Shown piece by piece: positions 3,061 to 47,265 of a DNA stretch of 64,000 nt; positions within the stretch are counted from its first letter, which is position 1, and each line of letters starts with the position of its first letter. This stretch comes from Candidatus Poseidoniia archaeon (GTDB taxonomy: Archaea; Thermoplasmatota; Poseidoniia; MGIII; CG-Epi1): NCBI GenBank assembly GCA_029936395.1, contig JAPYSW010000001.1, forward strand, positions 1,427-65,426, in the 5' to 3' direction. Under the pieces are notes generated by a model that was given only the letters and a program-made list of their open reading frames with translations, was not told where the DNA came from and ran no database searches. Position numbers and translations under genes: made by a program.

Positions 3061-4031
3061 AATAAAGGCCCCAAAATCAATGGCAGCATGACTGTTGCGT
3101 CTCCTTCAACAGTTATTCGTCTTGCCTTAGGTTGTACTTTACCCCAAGAAACTGCTTCTCTAATTCTAGCACCACTGAGAGAACCATCCCACTCAGGAGC
3201 AGTAGTAACTTGAACGGCATAATCTAAACCCTCTCGAAATTGATTCCACCAAATTGTATGGTGTTTGGATATGCCTCCACCAACCATCAAAGCTCCGGTA
3301 CTTTCAGCTTCATGAACTATATCAGATAATTCATTTTCTTCGGCAAATAAATCTAAAGTGAAATCTCTATGATCTTGCCAAAATAACCACAATTGTGAAC
3401 CGACAGCCCCGTCAGTGGGACCTGGAACAAACACCTTAACATTCTTTCGAGCACAAGTTGCTAAAAAAGACTCAGAACCGTTTTTTTCTTCTGCTAAACG
3501 AAGACCTAATTCTCGCCATATCTTCCACGGAATCCAGCGGCTATCTTGTGCATATAATTCTGCTAAAATTGGCTGCATCCATTTTTCAATAGGAATACCA
3601 TAAGAATCATCTGGAACTAAAACATTTCCAAGTCGATTAACACCTTTCTCTCGTAATTTTTGGTCATCCATAGAAAAATCTCCATGATAATAATCTGCCA
3701 AAATTCGAGCTATATCGTGATCTAAAGTACCACAAGTAGTAACTACTACATCAATAAGGTCATTCTCTATTAATTGTCTGAGAAGACCTCTAGTCCCAGT
3801 TGCCATTATATCTGCTGGAAATGAAATGAATTTAGTACAATTTCCTTTTTGCATATCCTGAAGAATAGATGATGCTGTAGCTACTTTTGTTGCAACAAAA
3901 CCACCTGCTTCACTAAACTGAGAAATTAATTCAGATAATTTTGTATTTTTATCAATATGAATGTCTTTTACTGGTATTTTACGCATCCTTAACCGATCCA
4001 CAAGTACCACAAATATATTTGTTATTATCAA
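3057..4031 (-). CDS. dys: deoxyhypusine synthase
   Basis: 324 aa, a DHS family pattern throughout (NAD-binding Rossmann region, ...[24 protein letters not shown]...). The true start is probably the internal Met (MRKIPVKD, about 3986), which leaves only an 8-nt overlap with the gyrA stop. Confidence 0.85.
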
Positions 4032-6636: not shown

Positions 6637-7161
6637 GTGGCACCCCCCTTAAACATTATAATTATAAACTCTAAAAATAATGAAGAGTTTAATGACAAAC
6701 ATCGACGATTAATCGCAAAAATAGCCCCTATTTGTATAGCCTATAATTTCCACTTGACATTAGTTAATTTTCAGATAAATAATAGTGCATTGAATTTTGC
6801 TAAAGAAATAGCGCCTGCAACTAGCATCGGAAGTGGCGGAGAAAAATTAATAACATTAGCAGAAAAAGGTAGACTCCAAATGACTAACTTGCCTATTACT
6901 AATAATTTTGGTAAACTAATAATTTGTACTTCAAAACCAAACCAAAAAAAGATTGTAGATATTAACCAAATTGCTAAGTTATCCAAAGAAATAAAAATTG
7001 CACTAATCTTTGGAACTGACGATCAAAGAAATAAAAATATTAATCGATTATTAGATAGCTCAGTGTATCACTGTGATGTGAGTAAGAAAAATATCAAGTT
7101 GGAAGTAGATACTGAAATTGGTGCAATTACAACCATCATTCATAAAATTAGAACAACTTAA
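6637..7161 (+). CDS. Putative SPOUT-class RNA methyltransferase (TrmH/aTrm56-like); GTG start
   Basis: 174 aa. It has an N-terminal hydrophobic strand (NIIIIN), a motif-2-like IALIFGTDDQ and a motif-3-like EIGAITTIIHKI. Assignment is by motif resemblance only. Confidence 0.35.
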   Translation: MAPPLNIIIINSKNNEEFNDKHRRLIAKIAPICIAYNFHLTLVNFQINNSALNFAKEIAPATSIGSGGEKLITLAEKGRLQMTNLPITNNFGKLIICTSKPNQKKIVDINQIAKLSKEIKIALIFGTDDQRNKNINRLLDSSVYHCDVSKKNIKLEVDTEIGAITTIIHKIRTT

Positions 7162-24772: not shown

Positions 24773-25729
24773 ATGGAAGCTATAATTCTAGTAGGGGGAT
24801 TTGGGACCAGACTTAGACCCTTAACTCATACAGTTCCAAAACCATTACTTCCTCTAGCAAATATCCCAATGGTAGAGCGTATGATTCGGAATTTACCTGA
24901 AGTGTTTGACACTGCCATTTTAGCAGTCAATTATGGTTTAAAAGATATGAAAGAATATTTTAAAGGAAGGGACGTCGGAAAGAAAGTTGTACTTGTTCCA
25001 GAAGATGAACCATTAGGGACTGGAGGTGCAATGCGAAACTGCATTGATTATGTTACAGGTACTACTGCAGTATTCAATGGAGATATAGTAAGTTCTATAG
25101 ACTTAAATAAAATGTTAGAACAACATATAAGAACCAAAGCTAAAGGAACGCTTGCATTATGGAAAGTTGCAGATCCAAACCGATTTGGTGTTGTTGAATT
25201 TAAAAATGGAGAAATATTGCAATTTCAGGAGAAGCCCGAGAAAGGGACCGAATTATCAAACCTAATTAATGCTGGAACCTATCTATTGGAACCTGAAATA
25301 TTAGAGATGATACCTCCCAAACAAAAAATTTCTATTGAAAGAGAAATATATCCTAAAGTTGCCGGAGAGGGGTTACATGGTTTTCCGTTTGAAGGATACT
25401 TTATCGATGCTGGAACACCGGAATCCTATCTTGAAGCAAATTTCAAATCAATCGGAAATAATGGAACTGCAGCCCACACTGGAGCAAATATACGAGGCTC
25501 TGTCATGATACACGAAAATGCAAAATTAGAACATTGTATCATTGGGCCCAAGGCAATTATTGGACCTAATGTTAAGCTTGAGAAATGTATAATTAGAAAC
25601 TCGGTGATTCTTTCTGATGTCAATGGCTATGGTAGTGTTGTAGAAGAAAGCATTATAGGGCCAAACATAAAATTTGAAGAGGATGTGAACCGAAGTTTAA
25701 TATCCCCTAAAGGTCAAATAACATTTTAG
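24773..25729 (+). CDS. Sugar-phosphate nucleotidyltransferase with C-terminal left-handed beta-helix (GDP-mannose/NDP-sugar pyrophosphorylase-like)
   Basis: 318 aa. It has the N-terminal signature MEAIILVGGFGTRLRPLT and C-terminal hexapeptide repeats. Confidence 0.8.
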   Translation: MEAIILVGGFGTRLRPLTHTVPKPLLPLANIPMVERMIRNLPEVFDTAILAVNYGLKDMKEYFKGRDVGKKVVLVPEDEPLGTGGAMRNCIDYVTGTTAVFNGDIVSSIDLNKMLEQHIRTKAKGTLALWKVADPNRFGVVEFKNGEILQFQEKPEKGTELSNLINAGTYLLEPEILEMIPPKQKISIEREIYPKVAGEGLHGFPFEGYFIDAGTPESYLEANFKSIGNNGTAAHTGANIRGSVMIHENAKLEHCIIGPKAIIGPNVKLEKCIIRNSVILSDVNGYGSVVEESIIGPNIKFEEDVNRSLISPKGQITF

Positions 25730-25736
25730 ATTAATT

Positions 25737-26378
25737 ATGCCACTTAAAATTATTCAAATCCCAGTTGGACCATTGGTAATGAATGCTACACTAGTAATGG
25801 ATATAGAAAGTAAAGAAACTATATTTTTTGATCCAGGTGATGAAATTGAAAATATATTAAAAGTTGCTAAATCTGAAAACATGAATATTGTTAGACTAAT
25901 AGCAACTCACTGTCATGTGGATCATATTGCTGGAGCAAAACTTGCAATTGAAAAATTGAGATTGCCTCTTGAAATATGTCCTTTAGGAAAAGAAATGCTC
26001 GGAAGCGTAGGTCCAATTGCTGCAGCGTTCGGATATATAGCCTCTGAAATCAAAGAAGGTGGATATCTTAATGAAGGAGATATTGTAAACATTGGTGAAA
26101 CTAAATTTCGTATTTTACATTGTCCCGGACATAGCCCCGATTCACTCTGTTTTTACACAGATGGAGTTTTGATAGGAGGTGATGTTATCTTTAAAGGTAG
26201 TCTGGGAAGAACTGATTTACCTGGCGGGAATACTGAACAATTAATGAATTCTATTACTGAAAAAATCTATTTATTACCTGACGAAACCACTATTTATTCA
26301 GGACATGGCCCTAAAACCATATTAGGAATAGAAAAGAAACAAAATCCTTATCTTAATGGGACATTGAGACTAGCATAG
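25737..26378 (+). CDS. Metallo-beta-lactamase-fold hydrolase (glyoxalase II-like)
   Basis: 213 aa with the HCHVDHIAG (HxHxDH) motif, and downstream His/Asp ligands. Confidence 0.7.
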   Translation: MPLKIIQIPVGPLVMNATLVMDIESKETIFFDPGDEIENILKVAKSENMNIVRLIATHCHVDHIAGAKLAIEKLRLPLEICPLGKEMLGSVGPIAAAFGYIASEIKEGGYLNEGDIVNIGETKFRILHCPGHSPDSLCFYTDGVLIGGDVIFKGSLGRTDLPGGNTEQLMNSITEKIYLLPDETTIYSGHGPKTILGIEKKQNPYLNGTLRLA

Positions 26379-26412
26379 TAATGTTTATATCGATTTCATA
26401 ATTAAGGTAAAA

Positions 26413-27900
26413 TTGATGAGCTATGAGAAATATAATGAAAAAGTAAAAAAAATCTCAGAATCCATCAAATTAAATAAGAAATTAATTACTACAAATCGGA
26501 AAGGACATAATTACAGAGATTTGAAATTTAAAAAGAATCAAAACCGAATTGATACTGGAAATCTAACAAATATACTTTCAATAGATGGCAAATATATTGA
26601 TTGTGAATCTGCAGTAACTATAGGTAAAGTGAACCGGGCAACAATTCCAAGGAAAAAAATAATCCCCTCTCTACCAGAAGGAGATAATTTTACAGTAGGG
26701 GGATGTCTTGCTGGATTAGGTTTAGGATCAAGTTCATACATTCATGGTTTTTTTAATGATAATGTAATCGATTTTGATATTGTCCTAGGCAACGGCGAGA
26801 TAATGAAAAATGTTTCAAAGTTGAAAAATCCTGATCTATATTATGGAATCGGAGGAACTTACGGCACGATGGGGATTATCACAAGGGTCAAAACAAAATT
26901 AGTTTCCTGTGAAAAATATGTTAAAGTAAATTACTTTCATTATGACTCATTCGAGAACTTCTATGAAGAATTTCAAAGAAAAATTAAGAAGAAGAATGAC
27001 GACTTCATTGAAGCTTTTCAGAATAAAAAAGAAGATTATACTATCGTAACTGCAAATTTTATCAGCGATGTAAATCCTAATGATGTTTCAGTCATAAAAG
27101 ATAAAGATATTTTAAAACAGCGTCACATGTGTATTTATGCACAAATCGCAAAGAAAAAGAAATCGAGTTATTTGAGATTACTGGACTACTTAGAACGATA
27201 TAGTTATTCTGCTTTTTGGGGACATTATCTATACTCTCCTTATAAGATTAGAGATTATATTTATGCTGGATTGATGTATTCACTGATACCTAAGAAAATA
27301 TTAGACGCATCTCCAGGCCATGGGAAGTATAATATTTCTAAATATTTTCATGCTGCCAATCGTATAGTTGGAGATTATACTAGAGATGAATACGTTATTG
27401 CTACAGATATTGGAGTGCCACTATCAAAATTAAAAGGTGCGATAGATTTAGCAGATGAAATGACAGGGACATACCCTCGCTGGTTATGCCCAATAATAGA
27501 CAATCATAATCCGGAAAAAATATTTTGTACAAGAAAGACTGATATTTGTAAAGATGATATCATTATTGATTTAGGAATATACGGAATTAAAAACACCAAT
27601 AACAAGTCAAAGAGAATAAATCAAGCATTTGAAAAATTTTCTTTTGATAACGGTATTTTCAAAGGTTTTTTTTCTACTTGTTATTTTACTTATGATGATT
27701 TTTGGAAACAATTTGATAAACAAAAATATGAAAATATTAGGAAAAAATATCATGCTGATAAGAACTTTATGGATATATATGATAAGATAAACTATCGAAA
27801 TAAAGTAAAAAACGGAAATTTAAGAAGCAAACTATTCACTTTCTTTGGAAAGAAATACTTGAGACAAATTAATAAAAATAAGGATACATTAATTAAATAA
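26413..27900 (+). CDS. DHCR24/Diminuto-like FAD-linked oxidoreductase
   Basis: 495 aa. TVGGCLAGLGLGSSSYIHGFF...IVLGNGE...PDLYYGIGGTYGTMGIITRVKTKLV...KYVKVNY aligns block-for-block with the delta24-sterol reductase FAD-binding region. The gene is very Lys/Asn/Tyr/Ile-rich. Confidence 0.55.
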   Translation: MMSYEKYNEKVKKISESIKLNKKLITTNRKGHNYRDLKFKKNQNRIDTGNLTNILSIDGKYIDCESAVTIGKVNRATIPRKKIIPSLPEGDNFTVGGCLAGLGLGSSSYIHGFFNDNVIDFDIVLGNGEIMKNVSKLKNPDLYYGIGGTYGTMGIITRVKTKLVSCEKYVKVNYFHYDSFENFYEEFQRKIKKKNDDFIEAFQNKKEDYTIVTANFISDVNPNDVSVIKDKDILKQRHMCIYAQIAKKKKSSYLRLLDYLERYSYSAFWGHYLYSPYKIRDYIYAGLMYSLIPKKILDASPGHGKYNISKYFHAANRIVGDYTRDEYVIATDIGVPLSKLKGAIDLADEMTGTYPRWLCPIIDNHNPEKIFCTRKTDICKDDIIIDLGIYGIKNTNNKSKRINQAFEKFSFDNGIFKGFFSTCYFTYDDFWKQFDKQKYENIRKKYHADKNFMDIYDKINYRNKVKNGNLRSKLFTFFGKKYLRQINKNKDTLIK

Positions 27901-27903
27901 GAT

Positions 27904-28512
27904 ATGAAAACATTAATAGTAGGAAATAGGCCACTAAATAGTAATATAATTGATTTAGCAAAGGATAAACTCGTAATTGCAGCAGATGGAGGGGCTGATC
28001 GATTATTAAAACACAATATTATGCCTGATTACATAATTGGAGATTTAGATTCGATATCTGATAAAAATGCGACAAAACTAGAAGAATGGATTGTTTCAAA
28101 TAAAAATATTCAAAAAACAGATTTAGAAAAAGCAGTTGATTATGCAATTGAAAAGGGTTCAACTGATATTCAGATAGTTGGATGGTCTGGTGGTAGAATA
28201 GACCATACCTTGGCAGCATTAGGTTTAGTATTTAACTCTAAAATTAGTCTTATTGATGAACACTTTACAATACAAGCTATTCTCGATTCAAAACAAATAG
28301 AAGGTGCTGAGAATACCTTATTTTCACTCATTGCAATGCCTGAGGCTCGCGTTAGCGTTACAGGAGCAAGATGGAATCTTCAACATGAAAAATTAACCAT
28401 GGGAGGGAGAGGCGTGCATAATGAAATAGGACCTACCGGAACTGTAACTATCGATTGTCATAGCGGAAATCTACTACTAATTCAAGGTAATTTTGTATTG
28501 CCTCACGATTGA
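27904..28512 (+). CDS. thiamine pyrophosphokinase
   Basis: 202 aa. ...LVIAADGGADRL...PDYIIGDLDSIS is the TPK catalytic signature, with a C-terminal thiamin-binding beta-domain. Confidence 0.75.
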   Translation: MKTLIVGNRPLNSNIIDLAKDKLVIAADGGADRLLKHNIMPDYIIGDLDSISDKNATKLEEWIVSNKNIQKTDLEKAVDYAIEKGSTDIQIVGWSGGRIDHTLAALGLVFNSKISLIDEHFTIQAILDSKQIEGAENTLFSLIAMPEARVSVTGARWNLQHEKLTMGGRGVHNEIGPTGTVTIDCHSGNLLLIQGNFVLPHD

Positions 28513-29942
28513 CTATTTTCTATCTCAGAAACTAGAAAAGTCATTAAGGCTGAACCAAGAAGTGCAGATACAAATACCTCAAGATTGGCTAGGTCAACCT
28601 CATTAACGGGATTTGTCAGATAATCTATTCCAGTTTGTAAATCTGAAGTGTAAGTACCATAAATCACTACTGAAAGCAATCCAAAAATAGATCCGGCCAA
28701 ACCTCCATTGGCGGTAACTCTATTAGATAAGGATAAGAAAATCGGAAGTACTGTCGCTGCTGCAAACAAATCGGCCACCAAAAAAATTCTGAAAACACTT
28801 AATGCATCTTCGGAATAATACCATGCCAATATAATTGCAATTGGAGCTATAGCAATTACGCCATATCGGGTCTGTTGGATATCAAACTTAGAATCTGTTA
28901 AATCTCTAGAAACCACGGCAATAACTGCATTTTGAAGTGTATCTATACTAGAACAAACTAAAGCTACACCGAGAACTAATAACATAGCCAATATTGGTTC
29001 TGGGTAATCATGAATTAGTTCAAAAAATGCAATAGAAGGATCAATAATAGCCCCTCGACCAGCAGTGACTGTCCCTAAAAAACCAAATAGTAATACTGCA
29101 ATAAAACAAAGAACTGAGGCCATAATTGCCCCTTTCTGTAAAGCTTTATCATCTTTTGAAGCCCAAGTGCGCTGCCAATTACCCTGTGAAAACATTTCTG
29201 CAGCAGTTATTGCTAATACCAGTGCTAAACCTGCTTTAAATGTTGAATAATCACTAATACTTCCATGGTGCCATCCTGATTCAATATCTTCGGGAGTGTA
29301 GGCTCTAGCATCATCAATGGAACTACCAATACCTTCATTGAGAATAAGTAAAATAATACAAATTATCAACCAAATTATGAATAATGACTGTATGCGATCA
29401 GTCTTAATTGAAACAGGTAGACCACCAATTACTGTGTAAAAAGTTGTAACGACTGCAACACAAACTATAGGAACTAAAAAATCAATTCCCGATAAAAATT
29501 CAACGGCACGTCCAATTGCAATATACTCTGCAAACATAAATGTAAACATATAAATTATAGAAATTATACCTACATAAATTTGCATTGGGCGACCCATTTT
29601 CTGACGAACAAAATCTGCAAGAGTCACACCATCGGGAGTTAATCTACGAATTATAGGACCTAAATAAGCTAATAAAAGAAATGGAGTGGCTGAAGATAAA
29701 GCATACCCAAATACATCATAGAATCCACCATAATACCCAACTTCTGAAGGGCTAAAGAGAATCCATATCCCCATCCCAGAAGCAAACAAACTAAGTCCAA
29801 TCATTATCCAATTTTGACTACCGCGAGCTGATAAAAAATAGTCATTATCTAATTCATTTTCTGAAGACTCTCGATAACCTAGCCAAGCAAAAAAAGCTAA
29901 TGAACTGAACAATAAGATATAAGCAATACTTGAAGATATCAT
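28503..29942 (-). CDS. Sodium:solute symporter family transporter (ThiV-like candidate)
   Basis: 479 aa with about 13 TM segments and SSS topology. It is co-oriented with, and 4-nt overlapped by, the upstream ThiR-like gene. Confidence 0.75.
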   Translation of the reverse strand: MISSSIAYILLFSSLAFFAWLGYRESSENELDNDYFLSARGSQNWIMIGLSLFASGMGIWILFSPSEVGYYGGFYDVFGYALSSATPFLLLAYLGPIIRRLTPDGVTLADFVRQKMGRPMQIYVGIISIIYMFTFMFAEYIAIGRAVEFLSGIDFLVPIVCVAVVTTFYTVIGGLPVSIKTDRIQSLFIIWLIICIILLILNEGIGSSIDDARAYTPEDIESGWHHGSISDYSTFKAGLALVLAITAAEMFSQGNWQRTWASKDDKALQKGAIMASVLCFIAVLLFGFLGTVTAGRGAIIDPSIAFFELIHDYPEPILAMLLVLGVALVCSSIDTLQNAVIAVVSRDLTDSKFDIQQTRYGVIAIAPIAIILAWYYSEDALSVFRIFLVADLFAAATVLPIFLSLSNRVTANGGLAGSIFGLLSVVIYGTYTSDLQTGIDYLTNPVNEVDLANLEVFVSALLGSALMTFLVSEIENSQS

Positions 29943-34511: not shown

Positions 34512-35432
34512 ATGGATAAATATCAAAATATACGTAATAATATTATAGATAGATATAGTTGTTTAGTTGATGATGAAAAGAAATTTGCAGATTCAATTAA
34601 TATACCCCTGAAACAATCTTTTAGAGTTAATACATTAAAAGAAAAGAAAAAAACGGTGATAAACAAATTAAAGGAATATGATTCTAACATAAAGACTACC
34701 AAATGGAATGATAATGCCCATATTTCAGAACTAAATAATTTGGGTAGTAGTTTAGAACATTTTGTTGGTCAAATATATATCCAAGAGCTTACTTCGATGA
34801 TTCCACCATTAATAGTTAAAGATTTAATTAAGGATATTAAAATCATAGATTGTTGTGCAGCCCCTGGTTCGAAGACAACACAAATAGCAGCTATGATGGA
34901 AAATAAAGGCCATATTATTGCAAATGATGCTAGACATGCCCGATTAAAGTCATTGAGGGGGAATCTTGACAGACTTGGAGTTACAAACACTTCTGTAACA
35001 CTAAGAGATTTTAAATCATTTCCAAACACAAGTGCAGACTTATATTTTGTTGATGCACCATGTAGCTCAGAAGGCACGATTCGTAAAAAAAATGCAGTGG
35101 CCCGAACTTGGAAAGAAAGGGATTATCTTAGATTTAACAAACTTCAAAATGGATTATTAAGCAAAGCCTGTGAAATGGCACCCTCAGGAAGCACAATTGT
35201 CTACTCGACTTGTACGTTTTCTCCTGATGAAAATGAAAAGGTAGTTAGCGAAACCTTAGACAAGTATGATCTAAAAATGAAAACTATCAGTATCGAAAAC
35301 CTAAGAAGTGAATCTGGAATAACTGAATGGAATAATGAGAGCTATAATTCAGAAGTGAAAAAATGCATGAGAGTATGGCCGCATCATAATGACACTGATG
35401 CCTTCTTTATAGCTAGGATGGAAAAATATTGA
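34512..35432 (+). CDS. NOL1/NOP2/Sun-family RNA (cytosine-C5) methyltransferase
   Basis: 306 aa with a SAM site (DCCAAPGSKTT) and the two catalytic cysteine motifs (DAPCSSEG, STCTFSPDENE). Confidence 0.85.
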   Translation: MDKYQNIRNNIIDRYSCLVDDEKKFADSINIPLKQSFRVNTLKEKKKTVINKLKEYDSNIKTTKWNDNAHISELNNLGSSLEHFVGQIYIQELTSMIPPLIVKDLIKDIKIIDCCAAPGSKTTQIAAMMENKGHIIANDARHARLKSLRGNLDRLGVTNTSVTLRDFKSFPNTSADLYFVDAPCSSEGTIRKKNAVARTWKERDYLRFNKLQNGLLSKACEMAPSGSTIVYSTCTFSPDENEKVVSETLDKYDLKMKTISIENLRSESGITEWNNESYNSEVKKCMRVWPHHNDTDAFFIARMEKY

Positions 35433-35878
35433 AGCAATTAGAAGAAGTGAAAAAAAACTTGCTTTTAGAGTACTGTCTCGAACGCTTTGGAATAAATCCT
35501 GAAATTTGGGAGGGATATATTTGGTATTCCGGATCAAAAAATAAAATATATCTAGCAAATACTCTAGAATTGGAAAGAATTATTCCAGAAAGTAAGGGCA
35601 TTTGTATTTTCAGACTTGATAAAAGCCCTAAGCCAACAACCAATTTCCTCCAACTTTTTGGAAGATATATTACTAGAAATTACGTAGAACTTGATAATGA
35701 AAATACAAAGAAGTATTGTAGAGGTGAAGATTTAATCTTAGAAAATAATAAATCTATAATCCCTGGTTTTTTACTAATGACTAACAAGAATCGATTCTTA
35801 GGCTGTGGACATTGGAATGGTAAAATACTAAAGAATCAACTTCCGAAATCCAAATTTTGTAAGATAAACTTTCTTTGA
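35429..35878 (+). CDS. Small ORF with TTG start overlapping the Sun-MTase stop (TTGA); possibly a detached RsmF-like C-terminal domain
   Basis: 149 aa with no in-frame ATG for most of its length. Its position and size fit the C-terminal extension of RsmF/Sun enzymes. Confidence 0.35.
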   Translation: MKQLEEVKKNLLLEYCLERFGINPEIWEGYIWYSGSKNKIYLANTLELERIIPESKGICIFRLDKSPKPTTNFLQLFGRYITRNYVELDNENTKKYCRGEDLILENNKSIIPGFLLMTNKNRFLGCGHWNGKILKNQLPKSKFCKINFL

Positions 35879-38086: not shown

Positions 38087-38671
38087 ATGAACTTGCCGAA
38101 CGGCATAAGAAAAAAAAGATCATTCTTAGAAATTAAAGAAAATAAGAATTGGATTACTTGGAACCCATATCATTCAAAATTATCTGCATATATATTGGCA
38201 AAGGGAGCATATTGGCCATTTACCAAAAAAAGCATTGTCTTATATTTAGGAGCTGCAGAAGGAACCACTATACGTTTTCTTAGCAATATTTGTTCTGATG
38301 GTCGAATTATTGGAGTAGATATCTCCCCTACTTCAATGGCTGAATTACTTCTTTTGGCTGAAGAAAAAAAAAATATTATCCCATTCTTAGGTGATGCGCA
38401 GCTTCCAAAATACTATCAGCCCCATGTTAATTCTCCAGAGATAATATACCAAGACATTGCTCAAGGTAATCAATTAGATATTTTTATAAGAAACTATACT
38501 TATTTTAAACCTAAATGTGGTTTTCTAATGCTTAAATCAAAATCCATTAAAGGAAATGATAACGAAATTATTGCTCAGTACAAAGAGAAATTAAAATCTA
38601 ATTTCAAAATTGTGGAATGTATTAATATTTCAAAATGGGCTAAGGGCCATAGAGCCTATTATGTCCAATAA
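38087..38671 (+). CDS. flpA: fibrillarin-like rRNA/tRNA 2-prime-O-methyltransferase
   Basis: 194 aa. VLYLGAAEGTTIRFLSNICSDGRIIGVDISPTSMAELLLLAEEKKNIIPFLGDAQ aligns with the fibrillarin SAM-binding core. Confidence 0.75.
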   Translation: MNLPNGIRKKRSFLEIKENKNWITWNPYHSKLSAYILAKGAYWPFTKKSIVLYLGAAEGTTIRFLSNICSDGRIIGVDISPTSMAELLLLAEEKKNIIPFLGDAQLPKYYQPHVNSPEIIYQDIAQGNQLDIFIRNYTYFKPKCGFLMLKSKSIKGNDNEIIAQYKEKLKSNFKIVECINISKWAKGHRAYYVQ

Positions 38672-38746
38672 TGGAGCCATCGGTGGGAATCGAACCCACG
38701 ACCTGCGCCTTACCAAGGCACCGCTATACCCCTTAGCCACGATGGC
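38672..38746 (-). tRNA. tRNA-Thr (anticodon GGU)
   Basis: Hand-folded cloverleaf with a perfect 7-bp acceptor (GCCATCG/CGATGGC), D-stem GCTA/TAGC, anticodon stem GTGCC/GGCGC with loop TTGGTAA, T-arm GTGGG-TTCGATT-CCCAC and an encoded CCA. Its 3-prime end abuts the flpA stop codon. Confidence 0.8.
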
Positions 38747-38857: not shown

Positions 38858-41800
38858 ATGGTAACATACATAACTAATAGAAAAACTAAAGAAGAAGTTT
38901 TGAATGGTTTTGAACCTTTAATTCGAACTTGGTTTAATAACAAGTTTGATGATTTAACTCCGCCTCAGGCAATGGCAGTCCCATTAATAGAGAAAAATAA
39001 AAATGTCCTTGTTTCAAGTCCAACCGGGACTGGGAAAACCTTAACTGCATTTTTAAGTATTCTAAATAATTTTCTTAAACTCCACCGTGAAGATAATTTT
39101 GAAGATGGTGTCCATGCAATCTATATTTCACCGTTAAAAGCTCTCGCAAATGACATTGATCGAAATTTAAAACAACCTCTTGAAGAAATGATGGTATTGG
39201 CTAAAGAATTAGAAATAGACGTACCTGAAATTAAAGTAGCAGTTAGATCAGGTGATACGTCACTTAAAGAAAGAGCGCGGATGGTTAGGAAGCCACCACA
39301 TATCATAATTACTACTCCTGAAAGTTTAGGTCTTTTATTATCATCCAAAAAATTTAGAGACCATTTCAAAAGAACTAAATATATTATTTTAGATGAGATA
39401 CACGACTTAGCCAATAATAAGAGAGGCACACACCTATCACTTTCCGTTGAAAGATTGGCTCAGATTATCGATCGTGAACCTGTAAGAATAGGATTATCTG
39501 CAACTCAAGCACCTATTGAAGATATTGCGGGATTTCTAGGAGGGTACTACCAAGGGAAACCAAGGCATGTAAATATTGTAGATGTTAAGGAAAGAAAACA
39601 TTTAGACCTAAGGGTTCTTTGCCCTGTCGACGATCTTACTTTACATTCGACCGAAGTTATTAATTCGAAAATGTATGATCTTCTCGTGGATTTAATTAAA
39701 GATCACCGAACCACTTTAATTTTCACAAATACAAGAGCCGGAACTGAATCTATTTCATTACAACTTAAAGAAAGAGGAATCGAAAAATTAGCTGCACATC
39801 ACGGTTCATTATCAAAAGAAATGAGATTTGATGTTGAGAAAAAATTAAAAGGAGGAGAAATGGATGTCGTAATTTCTTCAACGAGTCTTGAATTGGGGAT
39901 AGATATTGGATATGTGGACTTAGTTGTTCAAATTGGATCCCCTAAATCTATTGCAAAAGGCCTACAACGTATTGGAAGATCTGGGCATGCTTTAAGAGCC
40001 ATATCAAAAGGTAGACTGGTTGTATTTGATTCCGACGATTTAATTGAATGTGCCGTTTTAGTTAGATCGGCTTATGCTGGAGAAATTGATCGTGTTTCAA
40101 TACCTGAAAAAGCTACTGATGTTTTAGCTCAGTCTATCATTGGAATGTCATTGGATAGAACATGGAATGTTGAGGAAATGTATAAACTCATAATTTCGGC
40201 ATACCCATATCGTAATTTATCTAAAAATGAATTTTTAGAAATATTGGATTTCTTGGGTGGAAATGCATTAGAAAAACACGGTGTTTATCCTAAAATTTGG
40301 TATGATAAAACTGTAGGTGAAATTGGAATAAAAAGAGGTTCACGTCAAATTTATAATATGAATATAGGTACCATTCCGCAGGAGATAAACTATGCAGTCG
40401 TCCTTGAAGGAAGAGGCGCCCAATTAGGGAACTTATCTGAAAAATTTGTTGAAAATCTATCCAAAAATGATATTTTTGTTCTGGGAGGGCGAACATATCA
40501 ATTTTTAGAATCGAATAGATCTACTGTGGTTGTAAAAGATGGACTTGGGAGAAAACCAACCGTACCTTCTTGGTCTGGAGAAATGTTACCGCGTTCTTTT
40601 GATTTATCTGAAGCTGTTGGAAGATTCAGAGGTGAAGTTGAGGAAAAATTAAAACTTACCGAAGAAGAAATTTATAGTTGGCTTGAAGATGAATTTAAAT
40701 TAGACAAAGGTGCTGCTAGAACTATAATCTCGCATTTAGATGAACAGAAGAAAATTTGTGGATTTATCCCTTCAGACAAAGATCTTATGGTTGAAGGATA
40801 TATCGATAATAGGGGACGGAATGGAGCAATATTCCATTTTCCTTTTGGTAGAAGAGTCAATGATGCTTTGGCAAGAGCATTTGCATTCCAACTAGGAAAC
40901 GAAATTGGAGGAAGTGTTAGGATTTCATTAAGTGATGATGCATTTTTATTAACATTTCCGACTAGATTGGCAATTGAAGGAATTGCTGACAGACTAATGC
41001 CAAAAAATTTAGAACCATTATTACGGAAATCTATTGCCAATACCGAAATCTTTGCACAAAGATTTAGACACTGTGCTAATCGTTCATTCATGGTTCTACG
41101 GAACTACAAAGGTAGAGAAATATCATTACCAAGGCAACAATTGAGAACCGCACAAGTTTTAGAAGCCATTAATGAAGTTGGTACTTTTCCTATGCTAGAA
41201 GAAGCATATCGTGAAGTATTACATGATGCTTTTGATTTAAAAAATGCACAAGTCATTATAGATGATATTGAAAATGGAAAAAGAAAGATTCATTACAGAA
41301 CTTATTCACCAGTTCCATCTCCCTTATCTCATAGTTTAATCCTATCTGGACTTAGTGATATTGTTCTAATGGAGGATCGTTCCGCCCTATTAAGGGAATT
41401 ACATTCTCAAGTATTAGGGAGAGTTCTTGAAGAAGGGGGTGGAGACAAACCTAGATTTGAAAAAGATATGATAGAAGGATACTTCAACGAAAAGAAACCT
41501 ATTATTGGAAGCAATGAAGGAGTAATTCAAGCGATAAAACAAATTGGTGGAATTTATCTATTAAATGATCAAGAAAAATCAATCTATCGCATGTCTGATA
41601 TGCCTACTACCGAAATACAAGAACTATGTAACTATATGATTGAAGAAAATATTGTAGAATCTGTATGGAATGGAAATAAGGATTCATTATTTGTTATGCC
41701 TGAAATGGTTCCATATTACAAGGCAATTTATGGTATTGATGAAAAATTATCAAAACAAGCTAAGAAAGTATATGACAAATTAGAAAAAGTAAAAGATATT

Positions 41801-44194
41801 AAATCAAAAAAAATCTGTGAAGAATTAGAACAAAACTATTTGGTTTGTAAAACTCCAAATGGAATTATAAGAAGAGATATCAAGACTACAATATCCTACG
41901 AAAAAGCATTAGATTGGGTAATTATCAAGCATTTGGGATTTACAGGTCCTAGATCTAAAGAGGACATTTCCTTAGAACTTAGATTGCCTGAAGAAATTAT
42001 TAATCAAACATTATACGAACTTGAAGAACAAGGCACAATACAAGGTGGAAACTTTATTTTAGGACGAAGTTCGCCACAATATCTCTTAGCTGAAGATATA
42101 ATCTACTTAGAAGCTCAAGCTTTAGGAAATATAGACGTAGTTCCAGAAAAAATATTAAGAGAATATATCGATCAAAAACTTTTCAAGAAATTTCCAAGTC
42201 TCCAAACTTTATTTGATCAACATAATGATGTTGCATCGCCTCGAACTGTTTTCCATAGATTAGAAAATCCTGATTTAGAAGAGTGGTGGGAATGGAGAGA
42301 CTCGGATGCAATATTACAAGGCCGATTTTCAGCCGGGAAATTGAGATACGTACCCGCCAATAGAGTTGGAATATATCAAGCTTTATTCAGAAGAGAAGCT
42401 GATGGAAAAATACAGAATTTAATTGTAGATATGTTAAAGAGAAGCCCACCTCTTTCAAAAAGCGAAATTACAAAAGAATTGGAAATAAAAACCGAATTAG
42501 TAGACGGGGCACTAAGAGCATTAGAAGAAAAACTCATGATTCATCGCTACAATAGACATAGAAATCCCTGGACAACACATAATCGTTATCGTCTTCTTAA
42601 TGAATATGAAGCACCTGAAAAACCAGAAAGAAAGTTAATGATTGATCAATTACGAAGCAATGGGCCTCTAACTTTTGCTGAATTAAGAAGAGAATGTGGA
42701 TTGCCACTAAATATAACTCGAAATATTTTAAATTCACTTCAAGAAGAGAATTTAATAGCGAAAATTGTAGTGGTTGGAGCCACCCGTCTCTTCACTTATT
42801 GTCTCAAAGAGGAAGTTGAACTCATTAAAAATACTATTGAGAAAAGAACTGTGCGAGTGACCTCATGGAGAGATCCAATCCTAACTCATATTAGAAGAGA
42901 AATGTATTCGTCATATGGTGAGGCATGGACTAATCCAATCATTTGTGGAGGAATGGTAGCCGGATATATGGAATCTTGGGCGATGTCAGGATTATTAGAT
43001 GTTAGAGAAGTAATTCTTGATGACGATACCCCAATTAGCGATTTCTTAGATGGTTTAGATGAATTTGCAACTTATCAAGAAAATTTCCACAGTAATATCA
43101 TAAGAGTAAAGGCTTTTGCTAGCACAAAAGTTGAAGATTTAGATGAAGATATTATAAACCAATTTGAACAGAAAGGGTACCAGAGAATACGGAATTGGTT
43201 AGTTAAAGGTCCAGTGATAAATAGAACATATCAAGAAAGGGAAATCTATGGATATTTACTGTGGAGACAATGTATACATCCTGAAAAAAGATACAATGAT
43301 GCCTCAATGGCATTCCGTGAAATGGGAGGAGTACGATCTGAATATGAATTATCATTAAGAATTCAGGGGCGTTTCTTTCATCCAAGAGATTATGGAAATG
43401 AAATGGAATTAGTTCAAGGAGTTATGATTCCAGGATACTCAACTTACTGCACCGTTAGAGATGCAATTATCTATCGTGATGCTCGAAATATGCCACCTGA
43501 ACCTGATGACCGAAGATTATTGGCCCTAGCTATTGATTCAAAAGGATTACCAAGAGAAGAATTATATCGTAGAAGTGGAATGGATCCTGATTCTTTCAAA
43601 CAATCTTTAGCTAGACTTTATCAATCTTTAAATTTAGTAAGAACTACAAGAGGAAACTATCGGACCTTACCAGTCAATCGAATCTATGAACCTGAAGAAG
43701 CAAAATTCAATGTTGTGAAAAGACTAATCATGTCATTCGGTATTGTTTCTGCTGAAGGGCTTGGAATGCTTTTGAAAGGTGAAATCCCAATGGCTGAACT
43801 TAGAAGTATTCTTCTAAGACTAGAATCTGAAGAAATTCTTGTTAAAGGATTTTTAAAAGAAGATAGTGATATACTCTATTGGATTCTAAAAAATGATCTA
43901 GAACATGTTAAAGGTCACTTATTTCAAGGAAGTTTCGTTCTAAATCAAGGCGACCGATTAGCCCATTATCTTAGTGAAGATGTTAAGCAAAAGTTTGGAT
44001 TAGGGGCATGTAATGTTATTTTTAGTTCAACGCGAATGACTGGAGCCTTTAAAATGTCAAAAAGAGGTAAGGATGTCACTATAACTGAATTTAAGGGAAC
44101 AAATCATGAGAGGCATGTTATCGAAGCATGGTGCCGTCAATGGAGACTCAATTTAGAATGGGAACTCAAAACTGATGAAAAGGTTGAAGTTTAA
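38858..44194 (+). CDS. lhr: Lhr-type large ATP-dependent helicase (long, bacterial-type, with a multi-winged-helix C-terminal region)
   Basis: 1778 aa. The Lhr-core N-terminus has Walker A SSPTGTGKT, DEIH (ILDEIHDLAN), motif VI (QRIGRSGH) and Lhr domain 4. The ~900-aa C-terminal extension has repeated WH-like segments. Confidence 0.85.
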   Translation: MVTYITNRKTKEEVLNGFEPLIRTWFNNKFDDLTPPQAMAVPLIEKNKNVLVSSPTGTGKTLTAFLSILNNFLKLHREDNFEDGVHAIYISPLKALANDIDRNLKQPLEEMMVLAKELEIDVPEIKVAVRSGDTSLKERARMVRKPPHIIITTPESLGLLLSSKKFRDHFKRTKYIILDEIHDLANNKRGTHLSLSVERLAQIIDREPVRIGLSATQAPIEDIAGFLGGYYQGKPRHVNIVDVKERKHLDLRVLCPVDDLTLHSTEVINSKMYDLLVDLIKDHRTTLIFTNTRAGTESISLQLKERGIEKLAAHHGSLSKEMRFDVEKKLKGGEMDVVISSTSLELGIDIGYVDLVVQIGSPKSIAKGLQRIGRSGHALRAISKGRLVVFDSDDLIECAVLVRSAYAGEIDRVSIPEKATDVLAQSIIGMSLDRTWNVEEMYKLIISAYPYRNLSKNEFLEILDFLGGNALEKHGVYPKIWYDKTVGEIGIKRGSRQIYNMNIGTIPQEINYAVVLEGRGAQLGNLSEKFVENLSKNDIFVLGGRTYQFLESNRSTVVVKDGLGRKPTVPSWSGEMLPRSFDLSEAVGRFRGEVEEKLKLTEEEIYSWLEDEFKLDKGAARTIISHLDEQKKICGFIPSDKDLMVEGYIDNRGRNGAIFHFPFGRRVNDALARAFAFQLGNEIGGSVRISLSDDAFLLTFPTRLAIEGIADRLMPKNLEPLLRKSIANTEIFAQRFRHCANRSFMVLRNYKGREISLPRQQLRTAQVLEAINEVGTFPMLEEAYREVLHDAFDLKNAQVIIDDIENGKRKIHYRTYSPVPSPLSHSLILSGLSDIVLMEDRSALLRELHSQVLGRVLEEGGGDKPRFEKDMIEGYFNEKKPIIGSNEGVIQAIKQIGGIYLLNDQEKSIYRMSDMPTTEIQELCNYMIEENIVESVWNGNKDSLFVMPEMVPYYKAIYGIDEKLSKQAKKVYDKLEKVKDIKSKKICEELEQNYLVCKTPNGIIRRDIKTTISYEKALDWVIIKHLGFTGPRSKEDISLELRLPEEIINQTLYELEEQGTIQGGNFILGRSSPQYLLAEDIIYLEAQALGNIDVVPEKILREYIDQKLFKKFPSLQTLFDQHNDVASPRTVFHRLENPDLEEWWEWRDSDAILQGRFSAGKLRYVPANRVGIYQALFRREADGKIQNLIVDMLKRSPPLSKSEITKELEIKTELVDGALRALEEKLMIHRYNRHRNPWTTHNRYRLLNEYEAPEKPERKLMIDQLRSNGPLTFAELRRECGLPLNITRNILNSLQEENLIAKIVVVGATRLFTYCLKEEVELIKNTIEKRTVRVTSWRDPILTHIRREMYSSYGEAWTNPIICGGMVAGYMESWAMSGLLDVREVILDDDTPISDFLDGLDEFATYQENFHSNIIRVKAFASTKVEDLDEDIINQFEQKGYQRIRNWLVKGPVINRTYQEREIYGYLLWRQCIHPEKRYNDASMAFREMGGVRSEYELSLRIQGRFFHPRDYGNEMELVQGVMIPGYSTYCTVRDAIIYRDARNMPPEPDDRRLLALAIDSKGLPREELYRRSGMDPDSFKQSLARLYQSLNLVRTTRGNYRTLPVNRIYEPEEAKFNVVKRLIMSFGIVSAEGLGMLLKGEIPMAELRSILLRLESEEILVKGFLKEDSDILYWILKNDLEHVKGHLFQGSFVLNQGDRLAHYLSEDVKQKFGLGACNVIFSSTRMTGAFKMSKRGKDVTITEFKGTNHERHVIEAWCRQWRLNLEWELKTDEKVEV

Positions 44195-47189: not shown

Positions 47190-47265
47190 GCAGGCGTGGT
47201 CTAGTCTGGTATGACTAGGGGTTTCCAACCCCTCAACCTGGGTTCAAATCCCGGCGCCTGCACCA
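47190..47265 (+). tRNA. tRNA-Gly (anticodon UCC)
   Basis: Hand fold with acceptor GCAGGCG/CGCCTGC, anticodon stem AGGGG/CCCCT and loop TTTCCAA, T-arm CTGGG-TTCAAAT-CCCGG, discriminator A and an encoded CCA. It starts 1 nt after the stop of the upstream surface-protein gene. Confidence 0.75.

What the first reader, a model, noticed from the sequence alone, without database searches (positions are those of the whole stretch)
26413..27900. DHCR24/Diminuto-like FAD oxidoreductase in an archaeal context, compositionally more AT-rich than its neighbours
Residues about 90-180 align block by block with the FAD-binding region of eukaryotic delta24-sterol reductase (TVGG..G.G..SSS...G.F......VL..G...........DL.Y......GT.G......K.....KYVK). 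The N-terminal membrane anchor is missing. Archaea do not make sterols, so the substrate is unknown (an isoprenoid or quinone side-chain reduction is possible). The gene is extremely Lys/Asn/Ile/Tyr-rich and visibly lower in GC than the flanking genes, which hints at lateral acquisition. It sits in a tight same-strand string: TrmY, sugar nucleotidyltransferase, MBL hydrolase, this gene, TPK.
Basis: partly seen in the sequence, partly recalled or inferred. Interest (0 to 1): 0.5.

Follow-up and report, generated by a model that had tools for sequence, protein, structure and literature searches.

The report
Virus-related DHCR24-like reductase in marine archaea
A core gene of surface-ocean Marine Group III archaea encodes a relative of the eukaryotic sterol side-chain reductase DHCR24 whose closest kin sit on giant-virus-like DNA, and in one sister lineage the same chromosomal slot holds the usual archaeal isoprenoid-saturating enzyme instead, which suggests it saturates isoprenoid lipids or quinones.

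Summary
ORF 26416..27900 (+, 494 aa) is a full-length member of the broad DHCR24-like branch of VAO/PCMH flavoproteins. It has no transmembrane anchor and the lowest GC of 54 ORFs in the window.

GC3 is normal. The gene sits in conserved synteny in 57 Marine Group III (MGIII) loci, evolves in step with its flanks (r=0.89), and has dN/dS 0.12. It is therefore old and vertically inherited.

An ancient transfer is nevertheless supported. The MGIII proteins form a 100%-supported clade with two 58–59% identical proteins on AT-rich, giant-virus-like contigs. The MGIII protein also keeps the amino-acid composition of an AT-rich genome in every lineage examined.

Function is inferred, not shown. In one nested MGIII sublineage (7 loci) the same slot holds a geranylgeranyl-reductase-family gene instead, and the two are never found together. 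A MenA-like prenyltransferase lies two genes upstream in many lineages. A distant relative sits in an isoprenoid gene cluster.

The most likely role is saturation of an isoprenoid side-chain double bond at the membrane. I could not test whether DHCR24L-bearing genomes have a geranylgeranyl reductase elsewhere.

The parts
26416..27900 (+). DHCR24-like FAD oxidoreductase gene ('DHCR24L'), 494 aa plus stop. The TTG at 26413 is the mechanical ORF start.
   Evidence: ORF. Orthologs start at the ATG. Full-length similarity to DHCR24-family proteins. dN/dS 0.12.
26437..26805 (+). Core of the FAD-binding PCMH-type domain (residues 9-131 of the 495-aa ORF). It includes TVGG (94-97) and the conserved R29 and R35, which correspond to human R94 and R103.
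   Evidence: Pfam PF01565; invariant columns; residue mapping; pLDDT above 90 over most of this stretch.
26950..27792 (+). Substrate (cap) domain and the return to the FAD domain, residues about 180-460. It carries the DHCR24-specific motifs YPxW(L/I)CP, IDLGIYG, FWxxFDxxxYxxxRxKY and FMDIYDK. It also has a lineage-specific, poorly modelled insertion at about 265-311.
   Evidence: Alignments; model confidence; no Pfam model covers this stretch.
27814..27897 (+). C-terminal extension specific to the MGIII plus virus-like clade (LRSKLFTFFGKKYLRQINKNKDTLIK). It is a cationic amphipathic helix and a candidate peripheral membrane anchor.
   Evidence: Absent from human, Anaeramoeba and Legionella proteins but present in P0028. 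Hydrophobic moment 0.59 and net charge +5. Modelled as helix 470-488. Highly conserved. The membrane role is an inference.
26384..26408 (+). Candidate archaeal expression signals in the 37-bp spacer after the MBL gene: a TATA-like TTTATAT (26384-26390) and AAGGT (26404-26408).
   Evidence: Sequence. Conserved in the window's clade of MGIII loci. Function not tested.
25737..26378 (+). Upstream neighbour, an MBL-fold (GloB-like) hydrolase. It occupies the variable slot together with DHCR24L but is absent from some DHCR24L loci.
   Evidence: Pfam and NCBIfam. Missing in L015 and L071 and in all GGR loci.
27904..28512 (+). Downstream neighbour, thiamine diphosphokinase. It marks the fixed right border of the slot.
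   Evidence: TIGR01378, 135.8 bits against a cut-off of 76.4. Synteny.
24773..25729 (+). Sugar-1-phosphate nucleotidyltransferase. It marks the fixed left border of the slot.
   Evidence: Pfam NTP_transferase. Synteny.

Best explanation
The gene encodes a soluble or peripherally membrane-bound FAD flavoprotein of the DHCR24-like family. It is a core, vertically inherited, selectively maintained gene of low-GC (epipelagic-type) Marine Group III archaea.

Origin (inferred): an MGIII ancestor acquired it long ago from the gene pool of AT-rich giant viruses of marine protists, or from their hosts. Synonymous sites have since equilibrated to the host. The protein still has the Lys/Asn/Ile/Tyr/Phe-rich composition of the donor.

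Mechanism (inferred from family chemistry and context, not shown): like DHCR24, it uses FAD and a nicotinamide reductant to saturate a trisubstituted prenyl-type C=C. The substrate would not be a sterol side chain but an archaeal isoprenoid chain, either a membrane ether-lipid precursor or a prenylquinone side chain. The enzyme would be held at the membrane surface by its cationic C-terminal amphipathic helix. That is the job normally done by geranylgeranyl-reductase (GGR) family enzymes.
For: Family: full-length collinear matches to named DHCR24s and a VAO two-domain fold, pLDDT 80, pTM 0.83.

Vertical inheritance and function: found in about 20 GTDB species genomes, all MGIII. Synteny NTP-transferase-(MBL)-DHCR24L-TPK in 57 loci. 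Pairwise distances correlate with those of six flanking proteins, r=0.89. dN/dS is 0.12, against 0.11 and 0.16 for the neighbours.

Virus link:
- P0028 (59% identity, same C-terminal tail) lies on a 23% GC contig with a eukaryote-type protein-only RNase P, RNB, a sulfotransferase, PhyH and ORFans.
- That RNase P has 41% identical full-length relatives on two IMG/VR giant-virus MAG contigs.
- The Mimiviridae early-promoter octamer lies 43-152 nt upstream of 5 genes on that contig (p about 9e-4).
- P0030 (58% identity) lies beside a Ras/Arf GTPase and GAPDH among ORFans.
- The clade [MGIII+P0028+P0030] has 100% bootstrap, with the virus-like sequences outside MGIII.

Composition: FKNIY is 0.44, against 0.28 for the host proteome, 0.42 for the L043 proteome and 0.28±0.07 for the rest of the family. 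The same pattern holds in 13 of 13 MGIII loci, always with normal GC3, and also in a 40.6% GC lineage.

Function:
- In 7 loci of one nested sublineage the slot holds a GGR-family gene instead (TIGR02032, 224 bits against a cut-off of 159; Pfam GGR_cat). DHCR24L and GGR never co-occur in any locus held.
- In the same region, the SSF symporter is replaced by a thiamine ABC transporter, a swap that preserves function.
- A MenA-like UbiA prenyltransferase lies two genes upstream in at least 12 loci.
- The 31%-identical relative P0033 sits with a polyprenyl synthetase, HMG-CoA synthase pieces, a tocopherol cyclase and a double DHCR24-like gene.
- The nearest solved folds, cytokinin oxidase and DprE1, both act on prenylated substrates.
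Against: - No biochemical data exist for any member of this subfamily.
- I could not test whether DHCR24L-bearing genomes keep a GGR elsewhere. Only about 8-64 kb per genome was available, so 'replacement' may really be 'addition'.
- The region has several variable slots, so the shared position could be a coincidence.
- Human Y471, which is essential in DHCR24, is Phe in the whole clade, and N294 and K306 are not conserved.
- In the window itself no isoprenoid gene is nearby.
- Transfer direction rests on composition and on weakly supported paraphyly (67%).
- Three short native genes in the window also reach FKNIY 0.41-0.42, so the composition is extreme but not far outside the native range.
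- L043 carries no capsid or polymerase hallmark gene within the 20 kb I hold.
- All trees are neighbour-joining, and the deep placement within the family is unresolved.
Confidence: 0.5

Rival explanations
1. It is a true sterol delta-24 reductase. MGIII cells take up phytoplankton sterols (desmosterol, 24-methylene sterols) and reduce their side chains, as proposed for sterol reductases of intracellular bacteria and giant viruses.
For: Family membership and names given by sources. R94 and R103 equivalents are conserved. Its closest kin are in giant-virus and Legionella gene pools that exploit eukaryotic hosts. There is a precedent in a different family, sterol delta-7 reductase in Legionella, chlamydiae and Mimivirus (PMC2667531). 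MGIII are predicted to degrade and take up lipids (PMC8473941).
Against: It lies outside the eukaryote-type orthologous clade, which has 84% bootstrap support. It has no membrane anchor. Y471 is replaced by F. The positional alternation with GGR and the MenA-like neighbour point to endogenous isoprenoids. No sterol genes were seen, although only 64 kb was examined.
Confidence: 0.12
2. It is an oxidase or dehydrogenase of the VAO superfamily with an unrelated substrate (alcohol, amine or sugar-lactone oxidation). The DHCR24 resemblance would reflect only shared ancestry.
For: Most VAO-family enzymes are oxidative. Only the FAD domain has a Pfam model. Weak sub-threshold hits to DprE1 and GlcD. 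The lineage-specific insertion and tail may signal a new specificity.
Against: Similarity to DHCR24s spans the substrate domain at E 1e-43 to 2e-61. Similarity to oxidases stops at the FAD domain, at E about 1e-12. No FAD-oxidase_C or cytokinin-binding domain was found.
Confidence: 0.15
3. The shared slot with GGR is a coincidence. The NTP-transferase-TPK interval is a hot spot for gene turnover, and DHCR24L and GGR have unrelated roles.
For: At least three variable slots occur within 10 kb (UbiA present or absent, MBL present or absent, SSF or ABC transporter). The rest of the neighbourhood is functionally mixed housekeeping.
Against: Of all the genes that could land there, both occupants are flavoproteins whose families reduce prenyl-type C=C bonds. 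They are strictly mutually exclusive across 64 informative loci. The other swap in the region is like-for-like, a thiamine-linked transporter for a thiamine transporter.
Confidence: 0.3
4. The transfer went the other way: giant viruses, or whatever L043 is, captured the gene from MGIII archaea.
For: The virus-like copies are rare singletons, whereas the MGIII copies are abundant and diverse. MGIII monophyly has only 57% support, so a sister relationship is possible.
Against: The protein's composition fits an AT-rich proteome, not the MGIII proteome, in every lineage. The two virus-like sequences tend to be paraphyletic, with P0030+MGIII at 67%. The next relatives are again on virus-like or eukaryote-associated contigs and in Legionella, not in archaea. 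No other archaeal genome in GTDB yielded a relative.
Confidence: 0.2
5. Recent lateral acquisition by this genome, which is the first reader's reading of the low GC.
For: Lowest GC of 54 ORFs.
Against: Normal GC3. Conserved synteny in 57 loci that span the two deepest MGIII clades sampled. Distances track those of the flanks. dN/dS is 0.12. Conserved archaeal-type upstream signals.
Confidence: 0.02

Closest known systems
Eukaryotic delta(24)-sterol reductase DHCR24 / plant DWF1 (DIMINUTO)
   Same: Same VAO/PCMH two-domain architecture. Collinear over about 440 residues (24-28% identity, E 1e-43 to 5e-48). Shares C-terminal motifs (YPxWLCP, IDxGxYG, FWxxFDxxxY, IYDK). The equivalents of R94 and R103 are conserved.
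   Different: No N-terminal transmembrane anchor. An extra cationic C-terminal helix and an internal insertion. Phe replaces Tyr471. It falls outside the eukaryote-type clade. The host makes no known sterols, and the likely substrate is a non-sterol isoprenoid.
Bacterial DHCR24-like proteins (e.g. Legionella busanensis WP_115330483, annotated Delta(24)-sterol reductase)
   Same: Anchor-less, about 470 aa, full-length 29% identity (E 2e-61). They belong to the same poorly resolved non-eukaryotic radiation of the family. They are uncharacterised.
   Different: They lack the C-terminal tail and are separated from this subfamily by a gap in identity (34% or less, against 55% or more within the MGIII and virus-like clade).
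DHCR24-like genes on giant-virus-like metagenomic contigs (P0028 on L043; P0030; the ~900-aa tandem doubles P0039-P0042)
   Same: P0028 and P0030 are 58-59% identical with the same length. P0028 has the same tail and the same amino-acid composition. They form a 100%-bootstrap clade with MGIII.
   Different: Entirely different genomic context (23% GC, eukaryote-type genes, ORFans), and they are rare singletons. The tandem doubles are distant, at 25-30% identity.
Geranylgeranyl reductase family (archaeal digeranylgeranylglycerophospholipid reductase, MenJ, ChlP)
   Same: Proposed functional analogue: a flavoprotein that saturates prenyl C=C bonds of membrane lipids or quinones. It occupies the identical chromosomal slot in a nested MGIII sublineage.
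   Different: Unrelated fold (Rossmann-type, p-hydroxybenzoate-hydroxylase-like) with no sequence similarity. The analogy is inferred from position and chemistry only.
Cytokinin oxidase/dehydrogenase and DprE1 (nearest solved structures)
   Same: Best Foldseek matches (E 1e-14 to 6e-18, TM about 0.6). Both are VAO-fold enzymes that bind prenylated substrates.
   Different: Sequence similarity is limited to the FAD domain. They are oxidative enzymes, and cytokinin oxidase binds FAD covalently. They are not the same subfamily.

Membership tests
DHCR24/DWF1 family (broad, DHCR24-like) | FAD-binding PCMH-type domain (PF01565) | tested here: met
   E 1.4e-12, 47.9 bits against a cut-off of 26.4.
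DHCR24/DWF1 family (broad, DHCR24-like) | Collinear similarity through the C-terminal substrate domain to annotated DHCR24s, stronger than to any other VAO subfamily | tested here: met
   Query residues 5-460 align to Anaeramoeba DHCR24 (5e-48), eukaryote-type P0136 (1e-43) and Legionella (2e-61). 141 full-length hits at E<1e-30. Oxidases match only residues 93-208 at about 1e-12.
Eukaryote-type DHCR24 orthologs (sterol delta-24 reductase proper) | Placement inside the orthologous clade that contains animal and plant enzymes | tested here: not met
   The eukaryote-type clade (n=22, bootstrap 84) excludes the MGIII clade, which sits on its own long branch.
Eukaryote-type DHCR24 orthologs (sterol delta-24 reductase proper) | N-terminal transmembrane anchor | tested here: not met
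   The protein starts at the equivalent of human residue ~62. Maximum KD19 hydropathy is 0.96, against 1.99 for human.
Eukaryote-type DHCR24 orthologs (sterol delta-24 reductase proper) | Conservation of residues whose mutation causes desmosterolosis (R94, R103, E191, N294, K306, Y471; list from my own knowledge) | tested here: inconclusive
   R94 and R103 are conserved. E191 becomes D, which is also seen in some eukaryote-type sequences. Y471 becomes F in the whole clade. N294 and K306 are not conserved.
Eukaryote-type DHCR24 orthologs (sterol delta-24 reductase proper) | NADPH-dependent reduction of the sterol delta-24 bond; sterol substrate available in the organism | not testable with these tools
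GlcD-type FAD-linked oxidases | C-terminal FAD-oxidase_C domain and a score at family level | tested here: not met
   No PF02913 hit. TIGR00387 glcD scores 27 bits against a cut-off of 568.
Cytokinin dehydrogenase | Cytokinin-binding C-terminal domain; similarity beyond the FAD domain | tested here: not met
   No cytokinin-binding Pfam hit. The sequence match is confined to residues 93-208. Structural TM is only about 0.6.
VAO/PCMH flavoprotein superfamily | Two-domain fold (FAD-binding plus cap) | tested here: met
   AlphaFold model with pLDDT 80 and pTM 0.83. Foldseek probability 1.00 to CKX and DprE1 over about 480-520 aligned columns.
Recently transferred (compositionally foreign) gene | Deviant synonymous-site composition and patchy distribution among close relatives | tested here: not met
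   GC3 z is +0.66 in the window and -0.8 to +1.8 in 13 loci. Present in syntenic position in 57 loci.
Geranylgeranyl reductase family (as a member) | GGR catalytic domain / TIGR02032 | tested here: not met
   No such hit for the window protein. The L066 slot protein does meet it. Only functional analogy is proposed.

The most novel reading that the evidence does not exclude
Low-GC (epipelagic) Marine Group III archaea use a DHCR24-like flavoenzyme of giant-virus or eukaryote-associated origin, in place of the canonical geranylgeranyl reductase, to saturate their membrane isoprenoids or quinone side chains. This would be a non-orthologous displacement in core archaeal lipid chemistry that followed a virus-to-archaeon gene transfer. 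It could also help explain why MGII/MGIII lipids have escaped identification.
Probability: 0.2. Interest if true: 0.85.

Novelty: new variant of a known kind. Interest (0 to 1): 0.6.

Why it matters
The membrane lipids of the abundant planktonic archaea MGII and MGIII are an acknowledged unknown. These groups lack Tes and G1P dehydrogenase, and no known archaeal lipids are detected where they dominate (PMC8941075, PMC6962369, PMC8473941).

A conserved, selectively maintained enzyme that alternates in one chromosomal slot with the canonical isoprenoid saturase gives a concrete, testable candidate for unusual isoprenoid chemistry in this group.

Two further points matter. First, a eukaryote-type lipid enzyme shared at 58-59% identity between archaea and giant-virus-like genomes would be an unusual route of gene flow. 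Second, the case shows that a gene can be compositionally odd through its amino acids alone long after its codons have ameliorated. That is a caution against using raw GC as a signal of recent transfer.

Tried and rejected
1. The afdb50 fold library, which would have given named UniProt matches, was unavailable. I used PDB and BFVD instead. BFVD returned only generic VAO-fold giant-virus proteins at 10-15% identity and was uninformative about close kin.

The metagenome scan did the job instead.

3. The overall count of AAAATTGA in L043, L041 and L045 is not enriched. Only the positional test on L043 is suggestive.

4. The same octamer overlaps the window gene's start codon (26409-26416) but occurs in only 2 of 20 orthologous upstream regions. 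I reject it as a viral relic.

5. I considered P0035, a PhyH protein carrying the DHCR24L tail, as evidence for a PhyH link or a modular tail. Its PhyH part matches neither L043's PhyH nor anything else I hold. It sits on an 895-bp contig and is probably a chimera.

6. The deep placement of the MGIII clade within the DHCR24-like radiation could not be resolved with NJ (bootstraps below 50). No ML tree software was available.

7. The L043 505-aa ORFan has no relative in IMG/VR.

8. Literature searches found no report of a DHCR24-like gene in MGIII, of a giant-virus link, or of GGR presence or absence in MGII/III. The main MGIII genome paper is not in the library.
Full report
**1. The observation.**
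The window holds an open reading frame at 26413..27900 on the + strand. All orthologs begin MSYEKY, so the real start is the ATG at 26416, giving 494 aa. Pfam finds only a FAD_binding_4 domain (PF01565, residues 9-131, E 1.4e-12). NCBIfam gives only far sub-threshold hits to DprE1, GlcD and others.

The gene has the lowest GC (0.292 against a mean of 0.350, z -2.2) and the highest Phe+Lys+Asn+Ile+Tyr content (0.444, z +2.75). The deficit lies entirely in codon positions 1 and 2 (GC12 z -2.4). GC3 is ordinary (0.236 against 0.221, z +0.66).

The rest of the window is core archaeal housekeeping: deoxyhypusine synthase, aIF6, L31e, Topo VI-B, fibrillarin, AlaRS, Lhr and others.

**2. Family.**
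An exhaustive HMMER search of 1.84 billion representatives found 2460 relatives, 141 of them at E<1e-30, and most align over query residues ~5-460. Named members include:
- Legionella busanensis 'Delta(24)-sterol reductase';
- Anaeramoeba ignava 24-dehydrocholesterol reductase;
- several JGI 'delta24-sterol reductase' entries.

Direct BLASTP gives 2e-61, 5e-48 and 1e-43 to the Legionella, Anaeramoeba and eukaryote-type proteins respectively. All three alignments are collinear through the C-terminal domain.

A human DHCR24 sequence that I recalled from memory aligns at 45-50% identity, end to end, with the eukaryote-type hits. It is therefore a valid reference for the family. It aligns with the window protein from human residue ~62 to the end at 25% identity.

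By contrast, PDB sequences (cytokinin oxidases, DprE1) match only the FAD domain, at about 1e-12. There is no solved DHCR24.

An AlphaFold model (pLDDT 80, pTM 0.83) has the VAO two-domain fold. Its best structural matches are cytokinin oxidase and DprE1 (E down to 6e-18, TM ~0.6). The protein is DHCR24-like.

It is not an ortholog of the sterol enzyme, for four reasons:
- In an NJ tree of 154 sequences, the eukaryote-type enzymes including human form their own clade (n=22, bootstrap 84). The MGIII proteins form a separate long-branched clade (bootstrap 100) whose deep position is unresolved.
- The N-terminal anchor is absent (maximum hydropathy 0.96 against 1.99).
- Human R94 and R103 are conserved, but Y471 is Phe throughout the clade, and N294 and K306 are not conserved.
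- The clade has its own ~35-residue C-terminal extension, LRSKLFTFFGKKYL(R/K)QINKNK. It is a cationic amphipathic helix (hydrophobic moment 0.59, net charge +5) that is highly conserved. I read it, by inference, as a peripheral membrane anchor.

**3. Organism and inheritance.**
A scan of one genome per GTDB species returned about 20 genomes with 65-84% identical full-length copies. All are Marine Group III (Poseidoniia, Thermoplasmatota) MAGs or SAGs. The remaining hits were weak bacterial matches limited to the FAD domain, and no other archaea appeared.

In every locus with enough flank, the order AlaRS(-) / OPT / TrmY / NTP-transferase / MBL / DHCR24L / TPK / SSF(-) / ThiN(-) / aminotransferase is conserved. 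A metagenome scan anchored on TPK added 35 more loci with the gene in place.

Pairwise distances of DHCR24L correlate with those of six concatenated flanking proteins (r=0.89, slope 1.15). The deepest split in the flank tree (100% bootstrap) is recovered by the gene tree.

Against a 95% identical ortholog, dN/dS is 0.12, compared with 0.11 for MBL and 0.16 for TPK.

A TATA-like box and an AAGGT are conserved upstream in the window's clade.

The gene is therefore old, vertically inherited and functional in this lineage.

**4. An ancient transfer nevertheless.**
At 50% clustering the whole MGIII family collapses into one representative, and then identity drops to 34% or less. Within that cluster only two sequences are not from MGIII synteny.

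P0028 (59% identical, with the same tail) lies on a 26-kb contig, L043. That contig has these features:
- 23% GC;
- a eukaryote-type protein-only RNase P, an AMP-binding enzyme, a sulfotransferase, PhyH, RNB and many ORFans;
- an RNase P with 41% identical full-length relatives on two IMG/VR 'GVMAG' giant-virus contigs;
- the Mimiviridae early-promoter octamer AAAATTGA 43-152 nt upstream of five same-strand genes (binomial p ~9e-4; it ranks 2nd of 168 permuted octamers, and the shifted form AAATTGAA ranks 1st).

P0030 (58% identical) lies beside a Ras/Arf GTPase and GAPDH among ORFans.

In a focused tree, [MGIII+P0028+P0030] has 100% bootstrap. The two virus-like sequences fall outside MGIII (MGIII monophyly 57%) and tend to be paraphyletic (P0030+MGIII 67%).

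The next relatives are again not archaeal. They are ~900-aa tandem double proteins on contigs with PRA1, LRR and ORFan genes, Legionella, and P0033 (see section 5).

Composition gives a direction. The MGIII protein has 44% FKNIY and 16% GARP. That matches the L043 proteome (42% and 13%) and P0028 (44%). It does not match its host proteome (28% and 22%) or the rest of the family (28±7%; human 24%). The same anomaly, always with normal GC3, recurs in 13 of 13 MGIII loci. It persists in a 40.6% GC lineage.

The simplest reading is that an MGIII ancestor acquired the gene from an AT-rich giant-virus or host gene pool. Synonymous sites then ameliorated, while constrained amino-acid positions did not.

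Caveats:
- The trees are NJ only.
- The paraphyly is weakly supported.
- L043 shows no capsid or polymerase hallmark gene in the 20 kb I hold.
- Three short native genes in the window reach FKNIY 0.41-0.42.

**5. What it probably does.**
DHCR24 chemistry (established knowledge) is FAD-mediated, NADPH-driven saturation of the terminal trisubstituted C=C of the sterol side chain. That bond is chemically a prenyl unit. Four lines of circumstantial evidence suggest the MGIII enzyme does this on endogenous isoprenoids.

(a) In seven loci of one MGIII sublineage (L062, L065-L068, L072, L075; GC 41-44%) all flanks are conserved, but MBL and DHCR24L are missing. The NTP-transferase-TPK slot instead holds a 394-aa GGR-family flavoprotein. 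It scores 224 bits on TIGR02032 against a cut-off of 159, has the Pfam GGR_cat domain, and its best match is a full-length hit to the Thermoplasmatales digeranylgeranylglycerophospholipid reductase at E 1e-107.

GGR occurs in none of the 57 DHCR24L loci nor in the 64-kb window. The GGR lineage is monophyletic (100%), and its sister (100%) is the DHCR24L-bearing L074. It is nested within DHCR24L-bearing diversity under midpoint rooting. GGR is compositionally native there. So a single swap exchanged two unrelated flavoproteins whose families both reduce prenyl double bonds.

(b) The same region offers an internal control. The SSF symporter between TPK and ThiN is replaced in other lineages by a thiamine ABC transporter, whose binding protein scores 157 bits on TIGR01254 against a cut-off of 93. 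That swap preserves function.

(c) A MenA-like UbiA prenyltransferase occupies the TrmY-NTP-transferase slot in at least 12 loci, of both the GGR and DHCR24L types. It is absent from the window itself.

(d) The 31%-identical relative P0033 sits in a compact cluster with a polyprenyl synthetase, HMG-CoA synthase fragments, a tocopherol cyclase and a double DHCR24-like gene.

My best explanation is therefore a peripheral membrane flavoenzyme that saturates an isoprenoid chain of an ether-lipid precursor or a prenylquinone, acting as an analogue of GGR. Shown: family, fold, inheritance, selective constraint, the virus-linked clade and the mutually exclusive slot. Inferred: substrate, reductant, membrane binding, direction of transfer and functional equivalence with GGR.

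The key gap is that I could not examine whole MGIII genomes to see whether DHCR24L-bearing cells keep a GGR elsewhere.

**6. Comparison with what is known, and novelty.**
Databases already label relatives 'Delta24-sterol reductase', so the homology itself is not new. Phylogenomic studies treat DHCR24 as a eukaryotic invention recruited from bacterial FAD dehydrogenases, with occasional transfers to bacteria (PMC2817430; PMC8237579). The nearest precedent for sharing across such hosts involves a different family, sterol delta-7 reductase in Legionella, chlamydiae and Mimivirus (PMC2667531).

In the searchable literature I found no report of a DHCR24-like gene in MGIII, of its giant-virus kinship, or of its alternation with GGR.

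MGII and MGIII lipids are an open problem, which gives the hypothesis practical value.

I class this as a new variant of a known kind: an anchor-less, tail-bearing DHCR24-like subfamily fixed in an archaeal lineage. The finding is moderately to highly interesting, mainly because of the GGR swap and the virus link. Both need the decisive tests listed.

Noticed in passing
window 28503-29942 (-); L018 10104-13514; also L008, L016, L019, L079, L083, L089: The SSF-family symporter between TPK and ThiN is replaced in several MGIII lineages by a three-gene thiamine ABC transporter (ATPase, permease, and a TIGR01254 binding protein). This suggests the window's SSF gene is a transporter for thiamine or a thiamine precursor.
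   Followed up: partly
L001 5224-6330 (also L005, L009, L011, L012, L022, L064, L065, L069, L074, L075); the slot is empty in the window between 24771 and 24773: A 368-aa MenA-like UbiA prenyltransferase sits between TrmY and the NTP-transferase in many MGIII lineages but is absent from the window. Its matches to naphthoquinone phytyl/polyprenyl-transferases are sub-threshold.
   Followed up: partly
L045 1-8570 (Logan SRR12487029 contig): An AT-rich contig carries a compact isoprenoid cluster: an 888-aa tandem double DHCR24-like protein, a tocopherol cyclase, a second DHCR24-like gene (P0033), DUF829, HMG-CoA synthase split into 67-aa and 107-aa pieces, and a polyprenyl synthetase. Its origin (virus or eukaryote) is undetermined.
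   Followed up: partly
P0039-P0042, P0045; L041/L042: DHCR24-like proteins of about 900 aa consist of two tandem full-length copies. The N- and C-halves form separate clades, which points to an old duplication. P0040 lies among ORFans plus PRA1, LRR and glycosyltransferase genes on a GC3-rich (0.62) contig.
   Followed up: partly
P0035 (895-bp ENA contig): A 275-aa protein joins a PhyH-family N-terminal part, unrelated to anything I hold, to the last 50 residues of an MGIII DHCR24L (84% identical to L001). It is either an assembly chimera or a strain-level rearrangement.
   Followed up: partly
L043 8680-9618 (-) and 5173-6369 (+): On the giant-virus-like contig the DHCR24L copy is divergently adjacent to a PhyH-family dioxygenase and close to an AMP-binding (acyl-activating) enzyme and a sulfotransferase. 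This may be a lipid-modifying gene set.
   Followed up: no
window 26409-26416: The Mimiviridae early-promoter octamer AAAATTGA overlaps the start codon of the gene. It is present in only 2 of 20 orthologous upstream regions, so it is a coincidence.
   Followed up: yes
L089 2514-3957: In this MGIII locus the DHCR24L match is split into two pieces (2514-3407 and 3418-3957). This may be a frameshift, a pseudogene or a sequencing error.
   Followed up: no
window 6637-7161, 35429-35878, 38087-38671: Three short native genes (DUF531, the RsmF PUA-domain protein and fibrillarin) also have FKNIY of 0.41-0.42 and GC of about 0.30-0.31. High A+T-type amino-acid content is therefore not unique to the DHCR24L gene.
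   Followed up: no
window 38858-44194 (+): A very long (1778 aa) Lhr-type helicase has extra C-terminal regions that give only faint AlkZ-like and winged-helix hits.
   Followed up: no
window 38672-38746 (-) and 47190-47265 (+): tRNA-Thr(GGT) and tRNA-Gly(TCC) are the only RNA genes detected. No other Rfam family reaches its threshold.
   Followed up: yes
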